Positions 13,307-16,240 of a stretch of 25,289 nucleotides of DNA are shown here, in pieces. The stretch is from the IMG/VR virus record IMGVR_UViG_2698536647_000005. One strand, written 5' to 3'. The stretch's first letter is position 1. Each line of letters opens with the position of its first letter. The DNA comes from a virus. Lineage: Duplodnaviria > Heunggongvirae > Uroviricota > Caudoviricetes. The translations under genes and the position numbers were made by a program. The notes below the pieces were generated by a model, which saw only the letters and a program-made list of their open reading frames with translations, was not told the origin of the DNA and did not search any database.

Positions 13307-14143
13307 ATGAAACTTGAAGCTTCACTAAAACACTTTAGCCCTCAGGGTATGCACATCAGCGACGACGTGAAAGGAACCTCTCCGGACCGCCTTACAGGAA
13401 CAGATGTAATGGCGGCAATTGGCACCACCAGCAGCCGTGCGCGCTTCGGACTGGCGGCGTTCTTCGGTAAAGCGGGAATCAGCAAAACGGATGAACAGCT
13501 CGCAGTTCAGGCGCTGGCGCGATATGCGATGGATGTCGCACCGAAGAATGTTCGCAAAGCAGCTGGTGGGCAGTTCGGATGGTGCATGCAGATGTTGGCA
13601 CAATTTGCCTTTGCTGATTATTCACGTTCGGCGGCTACAAGCGTGACGTGTCACAGCTGCAGTGGTACCGGACGAACAACCCGCGAACAGATTACCCGCA
13701 AGGTTTCGTACCCATGGGGTAAAGCTCCATACTGGGCCTGCCGCTCTCGTGCTGTTCGACCGTCTGACTGGGAGCAGTGGATGGAGGTAACAGAGGTTGT
13801 ACCGGCGGTCTGTGATGCTTGCGAAGGCAAGGGAACGATCAGCGCCCGTTGTCGTTGCGGCGGTAAAGGCGAGGTTCTAGACCGCAAGGCCACAAGCGAG
13901 CGCGGCGCGCCGGTGTTTAAAACCTGCGAGCGCTGCAGCGGAAATGGATTTTCTGCGGTGCCGTCTACCGCAGCCTATAAAGTGATACTGAAGCGCGTTC
14001 CGGATCTGCACGTCAGAACATGGACTCGCAACTGGAAACCGTTTCTTGAGGCGCTGGTAAGCATTTGTCAGCAGGAGGAGGGAAACGCCGCAAGAGAATT
14101 TCAATCTGCAACCAGTTTAGGCGAAGAAGGTGACGAAATTTAG
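13307..14143 (+). CDS. Putative late-gene antiterminator (Q-like), Cys-rich with DnaJ-type CxxCxGxG repeats, 278 aa
   Basis: Last gene before a promoter-plus-terminator unit and the lysis cassette, which is the Q position. Three exact CxxCxGxG repeats (CHSCSGTG, CDACEGKG, CERCSGNG) and one variant (CRCGGKG). The functional call rests on position only. Confidence 0.45.
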   Translation: MKLEASLKHFSPQGMHISDDVKGTSPDRLTGTDVMAAIGTTSSRARFGLAAFFGKAGISKTDEQLAVQALARYAMDVAPKNVRKAAGGQFGWCMQMLAQFAFADYSRSAATSVTCHSCSGTGRTTREQITRKVSYPWGKAPYWACRSRAVRPSDWEQWMEVTEVVPAVCDACEGKGTISARCRCGGKGEVLDRKATSERGAPVFKTCERCSGNGFSAVPSTAAYKVILKRVPDLHVRTWTRNWKPFLEALVSICQQEEGNAAREFQSATSLGEEGDEI

Positions 14144-14192: not shown

Positions 14193-14232
14193 TCTAATCA
14201 TGCGGAGTAACGCCTGAAAGATTTAAACAATA

Positions 14233-14254
14233 AGCCCCTTGCGGGGCTTTTTTA
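14233..14254 (+). terminator. Intrinsic terminator (tR'-like), possibly bidirectional
   Basis: Stem AGCCCC, loop TTGC, stem GGGGCT, then TTTTTT. Abuts the stop codon of the convergent minus-strand gene 14252-15202. Confidence 0.7.
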
Positions 14255-15202
14255 TGGCAGCGAGTTAACGAAAGAACTGAAAAGGGCCTTATCTTTATTG
14301 CTAATTGATTTTTTCAAATGTAGTTGATGATTTAAAGGTTTAAAGTTTTCCTTTGTGAGATATATACATGCTTTCTCAAAACGATCCTGAAGGAATTGAA
14401 ATCTTTCATTCAGCCTGGAAACTTTTAATCCTAATGACATGACCTTCTTCTCAGGAATATCGTCAGGATTGCAATTATTGAGTTCTTCCAGCACAAGGCG
14501 AATATCTCTTTCGAAGATTAGCGCTATGTTATAATCGTTGAGGAGGCATTCAGGATTACGAACAATGCCAATTACTTCGTCGATGAATTGTGGTTTTACA
14601 TTATCCTCAGCATTTTCATCTTCGTTATCGGAAGGTTTTTGAGACATAACATTCGACAACTGCATTTCTTCCTTGGTTTTCCTTCTGGGAAGTAAAACTT
14701 TTCCATCTCCTAAAGCAGCCATACGTTTCAAAGCTTGACTCCCGGCTCGGCCAACTACTTTAGAATCTCTTAAATCTAAAATTTTATGTGCGACCCATTC
14801 TAATGATGGTTCACTGGCTTCGATTTTGGCTTTTGCTTGGTAATGGAGAAAAATATTTTTCTTGGCTTCCTTGAGGGCTGTTAGATATCTGTGGAAATTT
14901 GCCTTTTTCTCGAGGTCAGTGGCTAGGTTTTCAAATGCTATACCGAAGACTTTTGTACCGCAAACGTGACCCAGGTTCGTCTCCAGACCATCCTCAGTAA
15001 GAACAAGAAACCCTTTTTTATGGCCTGTTCGACAGCTCGACTTGCCACACGGGATTTCTTCCGGGAGGTCATCATAATAACCAAAAACATCGGATAATTG
15101 TTGATCGGTCAGTTCCAGCCTGGAATGATAGCTTTCCCGAGCTTGAATTTCTGTCCAGTCATTAATGCGATCAAAGCTATTGCCGTTTTTAATAAAAATC
15201 AT
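14252..15202 (-). CDS. Orphan hypothetical protein, 316 aa, low GC, antisense to the late operon (cargo gene)
   Basis: Uninterrupted 951-nt ORF with an AAGGGA ribosome-binding site. Visibly more AT-rich than flanking phage DNA (my estimate; not computed). Opposite orientation to all neighbours. Contains a C-x4-C ... H ... H-x-C cluster but no motif I recognise. Confidence 0.6.
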   Translation of the reverse strand: MIFIKNGNSFDRINDWTEIQARESYHSRLELTDQQLSDVFGYYDDLPEEIPCGKSSCRTGHKKGFLVLTEDGLETNLGHVCGTKVFGIAFENLATDLEKKANFHRYLTALKEAKKNIFLHYQAKAKIEASEPSLEWVAHKILDLRDSKVVGRAGSQALKRMAALGDGKVLLPRRKTKEEMQLSNVMSQKPSDNEDENAEDNVKPQFIDEVIGIVRNPECLLNDYNIALIFERDIRLVLEELNNCNPDDIPEKKVMSLGLKVSRLNERFQFLQDRFEKACIYLTKENFKPLNHQLHLKKSISNKDKALFSSFVNSLP

Positions 15203-15317
15203 ATCTTCCCTTGCTCTGGTTAGATTGAAAGCACTGCCGCTTGATATTTAACCATTTCCCTGATTGTTTTTCATCATAAAACCATATTATTGCAAGGGTA
15301 GTTTTACCTATGTATCT

Positions 15318-15394
15318 TCTTGCTCCCGGCCCTTTAGCTCAGTTGGTTAGAGCGTGCGACTCATAATCGCCCGGTCGCTGGTTCAAGTCCAGCA
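15318..15394 (+). tRNA. tRNA with CAU anticodon, ileX-like (tRNA-Ile2; tRNA-Met not excluded)
   Basis: Cloverleaf folded by hand: acceptor stem GGCCCTT/AAGGGCC, D-arm GCTC..GAGC, anticodon loop CTCATAA, T-arm GCTGG TTCAAGT CCAGC, 3' CCA. Close to E. coli ileX as recalled from memory. Confidence 0.8.
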
Positions 15395-15396
15395 AG

Positions 15397-15470
15397 GGCC
15401 ACCAGACCGCCACTAGCTCATCGGGAAGAGCGGCAACCCAGGTGTTGTGGTACGGGGTTCGAGGCTCCGG
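15397..15470 (+). tRNA. tRNA-like element with a non-canonical anticodon loop (possible pseudo-tRNA)
   Basis: Perfect acceptor stem CCGCCAC/GTGGCGG with discriminator and CCA, a D-arm GCTC-ATCGGGAA-GAGC and a T-arm CGGGG-TTCGAGG-CTCCG. The anticodon arm folds only as stem GCAAC/GTTGT with a 6-nt loop CCAGGT, or as a 4-bp stem with an 8-nt loop; no 7-nt loop is possible. Confidence 0.5.
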
Positions 15471-15482
15471 TGGCGGACCACT

Positions 15483-15558
<76 letters not shown>

Positions 15559-15561
15559 TAT

Positions 15562-15636
<75 letters not shown>

Positions 15637-15831: not shown

Positions 15832-15856
15832 AGCCTCGCTTCGGCGAGGTTTTTTC
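15832..15856 (+). terminator. Intrinsic terminator
   Basis: Stem AGCCTCGC, loop TTCG, stem GCGAGGT, then TTTTTT. Confidence 0.65.
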
Positions 15857-16073
15857 ATTTGTAAGACAACCATCAGGAAGCAATGGCTAATCTCATTGAC
15901 TGCAGGAATAAGTTCGGCGTAATTTATTTCTGTGGTGAATCCTTTCTAAGCGAAAGGGCGTTCCAGCCAACTGCTATCTGCAGGTATGCGCGCGACTTTG
16001 CTGGCTGGAGTAGAGTCACCGGGAGGCACCCGGCACCATGACAACTACAATACAAGTTTCAAATTCCTTGAGA

Positions 16074-16101
16074 GCCTGCCATTAAACGCAGGCCTTTTTT
16101 T
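16074..16101 (+). terminator. Intrinsic terminator
   Basis: Stem GCCTGC, loop CATTAAAC, stem GCAGGC, then CTTTTTTT. Confidence 0.6.
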
Positions 16102-16240
16102 ATGGTTTTGCAAACTGCTGCTACGCTTTGAGTTGTGGGAAGTAACTGAATGCCCGGTGGTTCTCCTGGACCGATAGTGAATCAGCCGATACAGCTTCAC
16201 CTCTGAGCATAAGTCTTACTCACACCTACCTTACAAATAG

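What the first reader, a model, noticed from the sequence alone, without database searches (positions are those of the whole stretch)
15397..15470. tRNA-like gene with a 6-nt or 8-nt anticodon loop inside the phage tRNA cluster
This element sits between a canonical ileX-like tRNA and tRNA-Thr. It has a perfect 7-bp acceptor stem, an encoded CCA, and normal D- and T-arms, but its anticodon arm can only be folded with a 6-nt loop (CCAGGU) or an 8-nt loop. An 8-nt loop is the architecture of frameshift-suppressor tRNAs; otherwise this is a decayed pseudo-tRNA or a tRNA-derived regulatory RNA.
Basis: seen in the sequence. Interest (0 to 1): 0.55.

Follow-up and report, generated by a model that had tools for sequence, protein, structure and literature searches.

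The report
Conserved non-decoding tRNA look-alike in prophages
A prophage tRNA gene cluster holds a perfectly tRNA-shaped RNA gene with a too-short anticodon loop; it belongs to a widespread, unannotated family whose body is as conserved as real tRNAs while the "anticodon" varies freely, so it is probably a working tRNA mimic and neither a decoder nor plain junk.

Summary
The element is real but lies at 15407-15480 (+), 10 nt right of the reported coordinates. It has a 7-bp acceptor stem, normal D- and T-arms, an encoded CCA and an anticodon stem GCAAC/GUUGU closing a 6-nt loop CCAGGU. ARAGORN calls it "tRNA-???". Rfam's tRNA model and PGAP do not call it.

It occupies the "argN slot" of lambdoid late-region tRNA clusters (ileZ-argN-argO in Stx phages). 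In relatives the same scaffold carries normal 7-nt loops: Arg UCU/UCG, or Lys UUU. A third class, to which the window belongs, has only 5- or 6-nt loops. I found at least 27 different loop sequences on an almost invariant 68-nt scaffold in prophages of about ten enterobacterial genera.

Loop positions vary as much as unconstrained spacer bases (π about 0.5-0.6). The scaffold is as conserved as the neighbouring real tRNAs (π 0.02-0.055), with compensatory stem changes. Intact copies also stand alone behind a consensus-like promoter sequence, and an 81-nt version sits between yahL and yahM in about 96% of complete E. coli genomes.

A frameshift-suppressor reading is not supported, and simple decay is unlikely. 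The best reading is a selected, non-decoding tRNA mimic. Its target is unknown; a decoy role in tRNA-targeting conflicts is inferred only.

The parts
15407..15480 (+). The tRNA-like gene ('X'), 74 nt: a short-loop member of the phage argN-slot tRNA scaffold family
   Evidence: ARAGORN 'tRNA-???'. Sequence read. Identical copies occur in 26 fetched loci and in 5 of 5426 complete E. coli genomes.
15407..15413 (+). Acceptor stem 5' strand, CCGCCAC; pairs with 15470-15476
   Evidence: Seven Watson-Crick pairs. Helix 99.4% paired across 69 family sequences, with a C-G to U-A double change at pair 7-66.
15416..15431 (+). D-arm: GCUC / AUCGGGAA / GAGC
   Evidence: Helix 98.9% paired, with a G-C to A-U double change at 10-25 in L303.
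15433..15437 (+). Anticodon stem 5' strand, GCAAC
   Evidence: RCAAC is invariant in 39 unique short-loop sequences; one copy in the 3'-anchored scan has CAAU.
15438..15443 (+). 6-nt loop CCAGGU. This is the hypervariable part of the family, with general format [C]NNN-R-U.
   Evidence: At least 27 different 5- or 6-nt loops on the same scaffold. Per-site diversity is 0.49-0.61 for the first five positions and 0 for the last U.
15444..15448 (+). Anticodon stem 3' strand, GUUGU
   Evidence: GTTGT in 38 of 39 unique sequences.
15449..15452 (+). 4-nt variable region, GGUA
   Evidence: AGUA in most relatives.
15453..15469 (+). T-arm: CGGGG / UUCGAGG / CUCCG
   Evidence: Pair 51-63 occurs as A-U (6 sequences), G-C (20, including the window), G-U (2) and unpaired (41). 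By sequence these are the Arg forms, the window clade and the Lys plus most short-loop forms, the last with A.C.
15470..15480 (+). Acceptor stem 3' strand GUGGCGG, discriminator A, encoded CCA
   Evidence: CCA is present in all family members retrieved (the retrieval patterns required it). The discriminator varies: A 29, U 9, G 1.
15328..15404 (+). tRNA-Ile2 type (anticodon CAU; PGAP names it tRNA-Ile), first gene of the cluster, 2 nt upstream of X
15483..15558 (+). tRNA-Thr(UGU), 2 nt downstream of X
15562..15636 (+). tRNA-Gly(UCC), last gene of the cluster
15832..15851 (+). Intrinsic-terminator-like hairpin plus T run downstream of the cluster
   Evidence: This is a consensus match only.
13307..14143 (+). 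Antiterminator Q gene. It places the cluster in the late region of a lambdoid prophage, between Q and the holin and lysozyme genes.
   Evidence: ORF. The identical region in E. coli MB06232 is annotated 'antitermination protein Q', followed by holin and lysozyme.

Best explanation
X is a disarmed but selectively maintained member of the phage 'argN-slot' tRNA family. It is a tRNA-shaped RNA that is no longer a decoder.

Shown:
- It derives from the same scaffold that in related prophages carries functional-looking tRNA-Arg (UCU/UCG) or tRNA-Lys (UUU).
- One nucleotide has been lost from each of the D-loop, the anticodon loop and the variable loop.
- In its class the anticodon loop is always 5 or 6 nt, and no register gives both U33 and a purine at 37.
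- The central loop bases drift like unconstrained sequence, while the remaining 68 nt are held as tightly as in the neighbouring genuine tRNAs.

Inferred:
- It is transcribed with the cluster, either as late transcription from Q-modified polymerase or from a weak promoter-like site just upstream.
- It is cut out by RNase P and 3' trimming like its neighbours, and it folds into the L-shape. U8, A14, G18 G19, the G53-C61 pair and the T-loop UUCGA are all present.
- It acts through its body (acceptor-T-arm-elbow) rather than through codon reading.

The most likely role, inferred only, is as a tRNA mimic or decoy. It would occupy a tRNA-binding factor without being usable in translation or being a substrate for anticodon-loop cleavage. 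Candidates are tRNA-directed nucleases or other tRNA-targeting toxins, since published work shows such enzymes targeting host tRNA-Thr(UGU) and tRNA-Lys, the types these clusters encode. The short loop makes it safe, because a charged tRNA with a drifting anticodon would miscode.

Sub-probabilities: about 0.75 that it is a selected non-decoding tRNA-like RNA; about 0.3 that the decoy role is the reason for selection.
For: Homology and derivation. In prophages with ~91% identical tRNA clusters, the slot between tRNA-Ile2 and tRNA-Thr holds a 77-nt tRNA-Lys(UUU) with the same acceptor, D and T arms. In Stx2 phages the same scaffold is annotated argN.

Family survey. Scans anchored on the 5' half and, independently, on the 3' half return the same picture:
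- at least 27 loop sequences of 5 or 6 nt, and none of 7 nt;
- a scaffold whose segments are nearly invariant. The acceptor 5' strand and both D-stem strands are identical in 39 of 39 unique sequences, GTGGCGG in 38 of 39, and the T-loop in 35 of 39.

Diversity in 43 non-redundant Ile2-X-Thr loci:
- X scaffold π = 0.022 and 0.055 (5' and 3' halves)
- tRNA-Ile2 0.052
- tRNA-Thr 0.003
- X loop positions 0.49-0.61
- free spacer bases 0.56-0.61

Structure. 95.7% of cloverleaf cells are paired, against 33-50% when slid. Double changes occur at pairs 7-66, 10-25 and 51-63. RNAalifold recovers the acceptor, D and T helices on its own.

Decay is visible but rare, which shows what neutral loss looks like here. 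Examples are L039 with many pair-breaking changes, a 66-nt form lacking the anticodon arm, and T-arm deletions.

Autonomy. Of 88 non-redundant loci, 9 have no adjacent tRNA and 31 have one on one side only. In Buttiauxella, Dryocola and Pluralibacter, intact X follows a conserved sequence that I read by eye as a sigma-70 promoter (TTGCAT-17-TATTAT) plus a leader hairpin. Some of these sites look chromosomal, next to ORFs that I recognised from memory as thrS-infC and ttcA.

E. coli core copy. An 81-nt version with a compensated acceptor stem (U7-A66) lies between yahL and yahM in 5192 of 5426 complete E. coli genomes. A yahM transcription start site has been reported (10.1101/2025.05.13.653802).

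Context. P2 Old destroys host tRNA-Thr(UGU) and phage tRNA-Thr(UGU) rescues (PMC12445682). [quoted passage not shown] PARIS is neutralised by a phage tRNA, and phage tRNAs are proposed to escape anticodon nucleases through loop mutations (PMC11464382 and PMC10264068).
Against: There is no direct evidence that X is made, processed, stable or bound by anything.

No partner was found:
- The loop has no complementary sequence nearby beyond chance (33 observed against 29.6 +/- 3.5).
- No neighbouring protein gene is consistently linked.
- The adjacent 316-aa ORF matches nothing in Pfam or PADLOC.

Loop diversity equals that of neutral spacers. It therefore shows absence of constraint, not positive selection, and it argues against a decoy that must imitate one particular anticodon loop.

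All homologues were retrieved with exact 14-26-nt words taken from X or its neighbours. More diverged or decayed copies are therefore under-sampled, and scaffold conservation is overestimated to an unknown degree.

Most copies are wedged 1-3 nt from real tRNAs, so part of the conservation could be a cis requirement for clean processing of the polycistronic precursor.

The discriminator base varies (A, U, G), which argues against a role needing one specific aminoacyl-tRNA synthetase.
Confidence: 0.5

Rival explanations
1. Trapped, inactivated tRNA kept only for cis reasons. X lost decoding through the loop deletion. Because it lies 1-3 nt from functional tRNAs in one precursor, it must still fold as a tRNA and be cut by RNase P so that the neighbours mature correctly. 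It has no function of its own.
For: - Spacers of 1-3 nt on both sides of X.
- 48 of 88 non-redundant loci have tRNAs on both sides.
- Conservation is concentrated in the acceptor, T-arm, elbow and CCA. From established knowledge, these are the features RNase P recognises, and the anticodon arm is dispensable for it.
- Loop diversity is neutral-like.
Against: - Clusters where tRNA-Ile2 directly abuts tRNA-Thr exist (L366), so X is not needed as a spacer.
- Intact X persists with no tRNA neighbour in 9 loci and with only one neighbour in 31. Some of these follow a promoter-like sequence of their own at chromosomal sites.
- The yahL-yahM copy stands alone in nearly all E. coli.
- Loop length stays at 5-6 nt and the anticodon stem sequence is invariant. 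RNase P processing would not require either.
Confidence: 0.2
2. Plain pseudogene. X is a recently inactivated tRNA copy drifting neutrally. The apparent scaffold conservation would be due to young age and to the way homologues were retrieved.
For: - Rfam and PGAP do not recognise it.
- Clearly decayed relatives exist: L039, the 66-nt and 67-nt deletion forms, and L349/L354/L373 without CCA.
- Retrieval by exact words biases toward conserved copies.
Against: - The same scaffold with different loops is found in prophages or chromosomes of Escherichia, Enterobacter, Citrobacter, Buttiauxella, Dryocola, Pluralibacter, Cedecea, Yokenella, Rosenbergiella and Pseudescherichia.
- Loop and spacer positions are near saturation (π 0.5-0.6) while the scaffold π is 0.02-0.055.
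- Anchoring the search on one half leaves the other half just as conserved.
- Double compensatory changes occur in three helices.
Confidence: 0.08
3. Unusual decoder. The C31-G39 pair opens to give a 4-bp stem with an 8-nt loop (7 nt in the 5-nt-loop relatives), and X reads a quadruplet or an unusual codon as a frameshift or nonsense suppressor.
For: - ARAGORN can force the 5-nt-loop relatives into 7-nt loops and names them Phe(aaa), Leu(taa), Ser(tga), Pro(agg) and even Stop(tta).
- Natural tRNAs with non-standard loop sizes exist but are very rare (PMC5009743).
Against: - The inferred 'anticodons' differ between nearly identical scaffolds that would share the same synthetase identity, which would cause miscoding.
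- In the forced 7-nt register of the 5-nt-loop relatives, position 37 is U rather than a purine. In the 8-nt reading of X, U33 is absent.
- The loop bases are as variable as spacers, whereas the anticodon loops of the neighbouring tRNAs are invariant.
- The long ORFs downstream of the lysis genes are uninterrupted in the mechanical ORF list.
Confidence: 0.05
4. DNA-level site. The invariant palindrome CAAC-N5/6-GTTG, with a free spacer, is a protein-binding or recombination site. Anticodon stem-loops of tRNA genes are classic integrase targets. On this view the RNA is irrelevant.
For: - The anticodon stem sequence does not covary in the short-loop class although the spacer is free.
- Standalone copies lie at sites that look like insertion hot spots, by my own reading of the flanking ORFs: next to ttcA, upstream of thrS, and in the yahL-yahM region.
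Against: - A DNA site would not require conservation of the whole cloverleaf, CCA and tertiary-interaction bases, nor compensatory changes in the acceptor and D stems.
- No integrase gene or repeat of the element was seen flanking the standalone copies. Only a coarse ORF look was made.
Confidence: 0.05

Closest known systems
argN (with ileZ and argO): the tRNA genes between Q and stx or the lysis genes in Stx-converting and other lambdoid phages
   Same: - Same genomic slot: second gene of the cluster, directly after the CAU tRNA-Ile2.
- Same scaffold: acceptor stem CCGCCA(C/U), D-arm GCUC-AUC(G/A)GGA..-GAGC, T-arm CGAGG-UUCGAG(U/G)-CCCCG, encoded CCA.
- About 75% identity over 96% of X.
   Different: - argN has a normal 7-nt loop (CUUCGAA, anticodon UCG), a 9-nt D-loop and a 5-nt variable loop.
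- X has lost one nucleotide from each of these three loops, and no register of its loop gives both U33 and a purine at 37.
Prophage tRNA-Lys(UUU) of PPompW-type prophages, PhiR47_1 and phage Evi
   Same: Direct positional homologue in clusters about 91% identical to the window (Ile2-Lys-Thr-Gly). It shares the anticodon stem core CAAC/GUUG and, with most short-loop copies, the A51.C63 T-stem mismatch.
   Different: It has a 7-nt loop CCUUUAA (unusual C33) and is called tRNA-Lys by PGAP and ARAGORN. It is plausibly a nuclease-escape tRNA in the sense of PMC10264068 and PMC11464382. X cannot decode.
Frameshift-suppressor tRNAs with 8-nt anticodon loops (sufD, sufA6, sufJ type; from established knowledge and PMC5009743)
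   Same: A non-7-nt anticodon loop in an otherwise normal tRNA.
   Different: - Suppressors have a base inserted into a loop that keeps U33 and a purine 3' of the anticodon, and they act at defined codons.
- X has a deletion, reaches 8 nt only by melting a C-G pair, lacks U33 in that register, and its loop sequence is not conserved among homologues.
tRNA-like RNAs that are processed like tRNAs but do not decode. Examples from my own knowledge are the T4 stable RNAs C and D in its tRNA cluster. Another is mascRNA from MALAT1 (paper listed).
   Same: A tRNA-shaped body, probable RNase P processing, co-location with tRNA genes (T4), and no decoding role.
   Different: No sequence relationship, and Rfam gives no match to any such family. 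X keeps a complete canonical cloverleaf and CCA.
RNA decoys used by phages against RNA-guided or RNA-targeting immunity, such as RNA anti-CRISPRs that mimic CRISPR repeats. This is a conceptual analogue from my own knowledge.
   Same: The idea of a non-functional mimic of the cellular RNA that an immune effector binds.
   Different: This is purely an analogy. No effector that binds X is known.

Membership tests
Canonical elongator tRNA (Rfam RF00005) | Cloverleaf with a 7-bp acceptor stem, D-arm, T-arm (UUCRA loop) and a 3' CCA or discriminator | tested here: met
   Read from the sequence. ARAGORN detects it. The helices are conserved across 69 family sequences.
Canonical elongator tRNA (Rfam RF00005) | 7-nt anticodon loop with U33 and a purine at 37 | tested here: not met
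   The loop is CCAGGU (6 nt). No register gives both U33 and R37. Homologues of the class have 5 or 6 nt.
Canonical elongator tRNA (Rfam RF00005) | Score at or above the family's gathering threshold | tested here: not met
   No RF00005 match at the gathering score or at E<=10 on 15395-15490. The three neighbouring tRNAs score 65-74 bits.
Canonical elongator tRNA (Rfam RF00005) | Anticodon conserved among orthologues | tested here: not met
   Loop π is 0.49-0.61 per site, against 0 in the anticodon loops of the neighbouring tRNA-Ile2 and tRNA-Thr.
Canonical elongator tRNA (Rfam RF00005) | Aminoacylation and use on the ribosome | not testable with these tools
   Needs acid-urea Northern blotting, tRNA-seq or ribosome association experiments.
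Frameshift-suppressor tRNA (8-nt loop) | Stable 8-nt loop formed by insertion next to the anticodon, with U33 retained | tested here: not met
   An 8-nt loop requires opening C31-G39, and the loop C-CCAGGU-G has no U33. Relative to 7-nt-loop relatives the change is a deletion.
Frameshift-suppressor tRNA (8-nt loop) | Defined quadruplet target, hence a conserved extended anticodon | tested here: not met
   At least 27 different loops on the same scaffold.
Frameshift-suppressor tRNA (8-nt loop) | Suppression activity | not testable with these tools
   Needs reporter assays.
Phage argN-slot tRNA scaffold family (ileZ-argN-argO clusters) | Position directly downstream of the CAU tRNA-Ile2 in the lambdoid late region between Q and the lysis or stx genes | tested here: met
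   Searches compared.
Phage argN-slot tRNA scaffold family (ileZ-argN-argO clusters) | Shared scaffold sequence (acceptor stem CCGCCAY/RUGGCGG, D- and T-arms) | tested here: met
   Alignments A1 and A2. blastn gives 75-81% identity over 96% of X to annotated argN and tRNA-Lys genes.
Phage argN-slot tRNA scaffold family (ileZ-argN-argO clusters) | Arg (or Lys) anticodon in a 7-nt loop | tested here: not met
   See the loop description. X is a derived, non-decoding offshoot of the family.
Neutral tRNA pseudogene | Substitutions spread over the whole gene at the neutral rate, with stems not maintained | tested here: not met
   Scaffold π is 0.02-0.055 against 0.5-0.6 for spacers and loop. Compensatory pairs occur. 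Caveat: retrieval bias.

The most novel reading that the evidence does not exclude
Enterobacterial prophages, and the E. coli core genome at yahL-yahM, carry a previously undescribed class of expressed, non-decoding tRNA mimics. The class evolved from a phage tRNA-Arg/Lys scaffold by shortening the anticodon loop to 5-6 nt. These RNAs would act as decoys or sponges for tRNA-directed nucleases, toxins or other tRNA-binding factors. That would make them an RNA-based counter-defence (or host-protective) device sitting beside the 'replacement' tRNAs (Thr UGU, Lys UUU) that published work shows can rescue cells or phages from P2 Old and PARIS.
Probability: 0.25. Interest if true: 0.85.

Novelty: new variant of a known kind. 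Interest (0 to 1): 0.66.

Why it matters
Phage-encoded tRNAs were long explained by codon usage. They are now being reinterpreted as replacements for host tRNAs destroyed by anticodon nucleases such as PrrC, PARIS, retron effectors, P2 Old and HepS.

A conserved family member that cannot decode, yet is held under tRNA-grade constraint, would add a second strategy to that picture: mimicry rather than replacement. It is spread over many genera, and a version is present in about 96% of complete E. coli genomes.

At minimum the finding shows that tRNA-shaped RNAs with another job are being missed. The family is invisible to Rfam's tRNA model and to PGAP, and ARAGORN mislabels its members as Phe(AAA), Leu(UAA), Ser(UGA), Pro(AGG) or 'Stop' tRNAs. 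That mislabelling can mislead codon-usage and suppressor-tRNA surveys of phage genomes.

The family also offers a natural experiment on what a tRNA body does when it is freed from the anticodon.

Tried and rejected
1. Local base-pairing partner for the loop (kissing-loop or antisense idea). The reverse complement of each locus's own loop within +/-300 nt is no more frequent than with loops shuffled among loci: 33 against 29.6 +/- 3.5, and 112 of 500 shuffles reach the observed value. Rejected.

2. Linked protein partner. tblastn of seven window ORFs around the cluster against all fetched loci gave no gene that tracks the short-loop class. The 316-aa reverse ORF occurs only in 18 short-loop loci, probably near-identical prophages (not checked). 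It has no Pfam or PADLOC match.

3. Known RNA families. Rfam gives nothing for X or for the E. coli yahL-yahM copy. The only weak hit on the X stretch is a chance c-di-GMP-II match on the opposite strand (14 bits).

4. Single-sequence thermodynamics. The MFE fold is not the cloverleaf and is not better than shuffles. This is uninformative for tRNAs.

5. Flank identity against loop difference, as a test of positive selection. Pairs with 94-97% identical 400-nt flanks differ throughout the loop. However, the scaffold differences show that whole X alleles are reshuffled by recombination, so the test is not clean. I rely on per-site diversity instead.

6. P2 Old substrate motif (paired CNG in the anticodon stem, PMC12445682). 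It is absent from GCAAC/GUUGU, so X is not an Old target mimic in that specific sense.

7. Literature. Searches for lambdoid tRNA-like elements, ileZ/argN/argO, yahM, and tRNA decoys or mimics found no description of this family. The library lacks most subscription-journal papers, so this is weak negative evidence.

It could only be used qualitatively.
Full report
WHAT IS THERE. The window is a lambdoid prophage of Escherichia coli. The 451 nt around the finding are 100% identical to chromosomal prophage DNA of E. coli MB06232 and two other complete genomes, and 99.3-99.6% identical to FAM21845 and MS 115-1. In MB06232 the region is annotated as antiterminator Q, a hypothetical gene on the opposite strand, three tRNAs, then holin and lysozyme. 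ARAGORN finds four genes in a tight row:
- tRNA-Ile2 type (CAU), 15328-15404
- a 'tRNA-???' with a two-base anticodon, 15407-15480
- tRNA-Thr(UGU), 15483-15558
- tRNA-Gly(UCC), 15562-15636

- a perfect 7-bp acceptor stem CCGCCAC/GUGGCGG
- D-arm GCUC-AUCGGGAA-GAGC
- anticodon stem GCAAC/GUUGU closing the 6-nt loop CCAGGU
- a 4-nt variable region
- T-arm CGGGG-UUCGAGG-CUCCG
- discriminator A and an encoded CCA

The bases that build the tRNA elbow are present (U8, A14, G18 G19, U54 U55 C56, A58, G53-C61). An 8-nt loop exists only if the C31-G39 pair is opened. Rfam's tRNA model scores the three neighbours at 65-74 bits. It does not report this element at the gathering score or at E<=10 on the isolated stretch. 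PGAP leaves the 78-nt gap unannotated.

WHAT IT IS RELATED TO. In E. coli prophages and phages whose tRNA cluster is about 91% identical (strain SLK172, phage PhiR47_1 and others), the same slot holds a 77-nt gene that both PGAP and ARAGORN call tRNA-Lys(UUU). The alignment shows the same acceptor, D and T arms. The window copy is shorter by one base in the D-loop, one in the anticodon loop and one in the variable loop, and the anticodon-loop region differs. In Stx2-converting phages the same scaffold, at the same position after ileZ, is the annotated argN tRNA-Arg (anticodon UCG), followed by argO. The element is therefore a derivative of the argN-slot tRNA of lambdoid late-region clusters.

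THE FAMILY SURVEY. I scanned IMG/VR, one genome per GTDB species, and JGI metagenomes with short exact words from the scaffold and parsed the hits. The scaffold occurs in three states:
1. 7-nt loop CUUCUAA or CUUCGAA (Arg).
2. 7-nt loop CCUUUAA (Lys, with an unusual C33).
3. A 73-74-nt class with a 5- or 6-nt loop, to which the window belongs.

In the third class I found at least 27 different loops.
- 6 nt: CCAGGU (the window), CCAGAU, CAGGAU, CACGGU, CACGAU, UACGAU, CACAGU, CACAGG, AGCAGU, CUCAGU, CAUAGU, CAUGGU, CUUGGU, CUUGGG, CUUGAG, CUUAGC, CGUUAU.
- 5 nt: UAAAU, UUAAU, AUAAU, GUAAU, UGAAU, AUGAU, GUGAU, UUUAU, CAGGU, CAUAG.

The loops form a network connected by single-base steps, with the general format [C]-NNN-purine-U. 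None has 7 nt. By contrast the other 68 nt hardly change. Among 39 unique sequences the acceptor 5' strand and both D-stem strands are invariant. The 3' acceptor strand is GUGGCGG in 38, the T-loop UUCGAGG in 35, and the anticodon stem RCAAC/GUUGU in 38.

Because the first scans were anchored in the 5' half, I repeated them anchored in the 3' half. The 5' half came back equally invariant, so the conservation is not simply imposed by the search word. It remains true that strongly diverged copies cannot be found this way. The hosts named in the GTDB hits are Enterobacter, Citrobacter, Buttiauxella, Dryocola, Pluralibacter, Cedecea, Yokenella, Rosenbergiella and Pseudescherichia, in addition to Escherichia.

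CONSTRAINT, QUANTIFIED. In 43 non-redundant loci with the arrangement Ile2-X-Thr, mean pairwise diversity per site is as follows:
- 5' and 3' halves of the X scaffold: 0.022 and 0.055
- tRNA-Ile2: 0.052
- tRNA-Thr: 0.003
- first five positions of the X loop: 0.49-0.61, and 0 for the final U
- free base of each 2-nt spacer: 0.56-0.61

The anticodon loops of the two neighbouring tRNAs are invariant. The X loop therefore behaves like unconstrained sequence, and the X body behaves like a working tRNA.

On an alignment of 69 unique family sequences, the acceptor, D and T helices are 95.7% paired, against 33-50% for slid registers. There are double (compensatory) changes at pair 7-66 (C-G to U-A), at 10-25 (G-C to A-U) and at 51-63. 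At 51-63 the Arg forms have A-U, the Lys and most short-loop forms have A.C, and the window clade has G-C. RNAalifold recovers the three helices on its own.

Decayed copies do exist. L039 has many pair-breaking substitutions. A 66-nt form lacks the anticodon arm (16 contigs). There are T-arm deletions, and Lys-like copies without CCA. They are a small minority of what was retrieved.

AUTONOMY. Of 88 non-redundant short-loop loci with at least 200 nt of flank, 48 have tRNAs on both sides, 31 on one side, and 9 have none. In Buttiauxella, Dryocola and Pluralibacter the element is the first or only gene behind a conserved sequence, TTGCATGG-TAATTT-ACTTATGTATTAT. I read this by eye as a sigma-70 promoter with a TTGCAT -35 element, a 17-nt spacer and a TATTAT -10 element. 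A leader hairpin ending in ...ACCA-AA follows it. Some of these sites look chromosomal rather than prophage. Two copies lie upstream of ORFs whose N-termini I recognised from memory as thrS and infC (Pluralibacter). Others lie next to an ORF I recognised as ttcA (Buttiauxella, Dryocola). No homology search was run on these ORFs.

An 81-nt version lies between yahL and yahM in 5192 of 5426 complete E. coli genomes, K-12 included. It reads CCGCCAU...AUGGCGG, with pair 7-66 compensated, extra bases beside the anticodon arm, and loop CAGGAUU. That loop resembles the CAGGAU loop of the Enterobacter and Dryocola copies. A TTGACA-16-CATAAT promoter-like site lies about 80 nt upstream (my reading). 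A recent reporter study confirms a yahM transcription start site (10.1101/2025.05.13.653802), but I could not check its exact coordinate. These standalone, intact copies are hard to reconcile with a purely cis 'spacer' role.

WHAT IT IS NOT.

A frameshift suppressor would need a stable 8-nt loop with U33 and a conserved extended anticodon aimed at a defined site. Here the 8-nt form requires melting a C-G pair and has no U33. Relatives have 5 or 6 (that is, 7 or 8) bases with unrelated sequences. The long ORFs downstream of the lysis genes are uninterrupted in the mechanical ORF list. Natural tRNAs with non-standard loop sizes are very rare, and none is known to mediate frameshifting (PMC5009743).

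ARAGORN's forced 7-nt readings of the 5-nt-loop relatives are Phe(aaa), Leu(taa), Ser(tga), Pro(agg) and Stop(tta). They have U at position 37 and change anticodon on an unchanged identity scaffold. Those labels are almost certainly artefacts.

A plain pseudogene is contradicted by the constraint data above, with the caveat about retrieval bias.

HOW IT MOST LIKELY WORKS.

Shown:
- derivation from the argN/Lys scaffold
- loss of a decodable loop
- tRNA-grade constraint on the body
- free drift of the central loop bases
- fixed loop length of 5-6 nt
- persistence without neighbours

Inferred: the RNA is made with the cluster. A weak promoter-like TTGCAA-17-TATCTT lies at 15290-15318 by eye but falls below the scan's threshold. 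The whole region lies downstream of Q, and a terminator-like hairpin lies at 15832-15851. The RNA would be released by RNase P and 3' trimming, would fold as an L-shaped tRNA, and would act through its body.

The neighbourhood suggests what for. These clusters carry the isoacceptors that tRNA-directed defences destroy:
- P2 Old degrades host tRNA-Thr(UGU), and phage tRNA-Thr(UGU) rescues (PMC12445682).
- PARIS is neutralised by a phage tRNA, and phage tRNAs are proposed to escape nucleases by loop mutations (PMC11464382 and PMC10264068).

A tRNA body that cannot be used by the ribosome, and offers no normal anticodon loop to cut, is what a decoy or sponge for a tRNA-binding effector would look like. 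The short loop would also prevent miscoding by a charged tRNA with a drifting anticodon. I put about 0.75 on 'selected, non-decoding tRNA-like RNA' and about 0.3 on the decoy role specifically.

The main rival, at about 0.2, is that X is an inactivated tRNA kept foldable only so that the tightly packed precursor is processed cleanly.

I found no partner. There is no complementary sequence near the loop beyond chance. No consistently linked gene was found, and the adjacent 316-aa ORF has no family match.

COMPARISON AND NOVELTY. The closest known things are argN of Stx phages and the prophage tRNA-Lys(UUU), which share the slot and scaffold but have normal loops. Functionally the closest are tRNA-shaped, RNase P-processed, non-decoding RNAs. 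Examples are the T4 stable RNAs C and D in its tRNA cluster and mascRNA, cited from my own knowledge. I found no description of this short-loop family in Rfam or in the searchable literature. The latter is weak negative evidence.

I classify it as a new variant of a known kind: a tRNA-derived, non-decoding RNA. The interest is moderately high because the conservation pattern is striking, the family is widespread and unannotated, and it bears on the current re-reading of phage tRNAs as players in tRNA-targeted immunity. Its function remains untested.

Noticed in passing
L304:2502-2582 (E. coli K-12 MG1655, about 344.56 kb, between yahL and yahM): An 81-nt homologue of the scaffold is present in 5192 of 5426 complete E. 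coli genomes. It has a compensated acceptor pair U7-A66, loop CAGGAUU and extra bases flanking the anticodon arm. It overlaps the annotated yahM start codon and follows a TTGACA-16-CATAAT promoter-like site. ARAGORN calls it tRNA-Ser(GGA); PGAP and Rfam call nothing.
   Followed up: partly
window 15899-16105 (+): Rfam match to the sRNA family STnc100 (53.1 bits against a gathering score of 47), just downstream of the tRNA cluster and its terminator-like hairpin and upstream of the holin gene. A 2026 preprint reports STnc100 hits as frequent near prophage Pas sRNAs.
   Followed up: no
L382:1202-1278 (argN of Stx2a phage F349): The annotated argN tRNA-Arg(UCG) of Stx2 phages has a G3.U70 wobble pair in its acceptor stem (CCGCCAU/GUGGUGG). 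This is the classical alanine identity element, so it might be mischarged with Ala. It also has the A51.C63 T-stem mismatch.
   Followed up: no
L002:1588-1664, L003:1585-1661, and about 55 IMG/VR contigs: The prophage tRNA-Lys(UUU) in the same slot has C33 instead of the near-universal U33 (loop CCUUUAA) and an A51.C63 mismatch in the T stem. It is plausibly an anticodon-nuclease escape variant. A related form has A33 and no CCA (L349, L354, L373).
   Followed up: partly
L320, L341, L357 and about 40 other loci (about 60 nt before tRNA-Thr); L240, L250, L237 (before X): Where no tRNA precedes the first gene of such clusters, the transcript seems to start with a conserved leader. The leader is a long hairpin ending in ...ACCA followed by a 2-nt spacer (for example CGGUUCUGAGGGGG...CCCCUGAAGAACCA-AU). 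It resembles an acceptor-stem minihelix and lies behind a strong promoter-like site. Its function is unknown.
   Followed up: no
window 14252-15202 (-), with hairpin 14232-14249: A 316-aa ORF on the opposite strand is inserted between Q and the tRNA cluster, next to a bidirectional terminator-like hairpin. It has no Pfam or PADLOC match. It was found only in 18 short-loop loci, probably near-identical prophages (not checked). It looks like a moron of unknown function.
   Followed up: partly
L009, L023, L025 and 13 more contigs: A 66-nt derivative of the scaffold has the whole anticodon arm deleted (CCGCCAC...GAACGUCACCCUGUGCGAGAUUCGGAGUCCCCGGUGGCGGUCCA). It sits between tRNA-Ile2(CAU) and tRNA-Arg(UCU) and is identical in 15 contigs. 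It is either a recent deletion or another maintained form.
   Followed up: no
window 15483-15558 (+): The cluster's tRNA-Thr(UGU) is the isoacceptor whose host version P2 Old destroys, and which phage copies can replace (PMC12445682). Its anticodon stem still carries a paired CUG/CAG motif of the kind Old is reported to cut. Whether this copy is Old-resistant is unclear.
   Followed up: no
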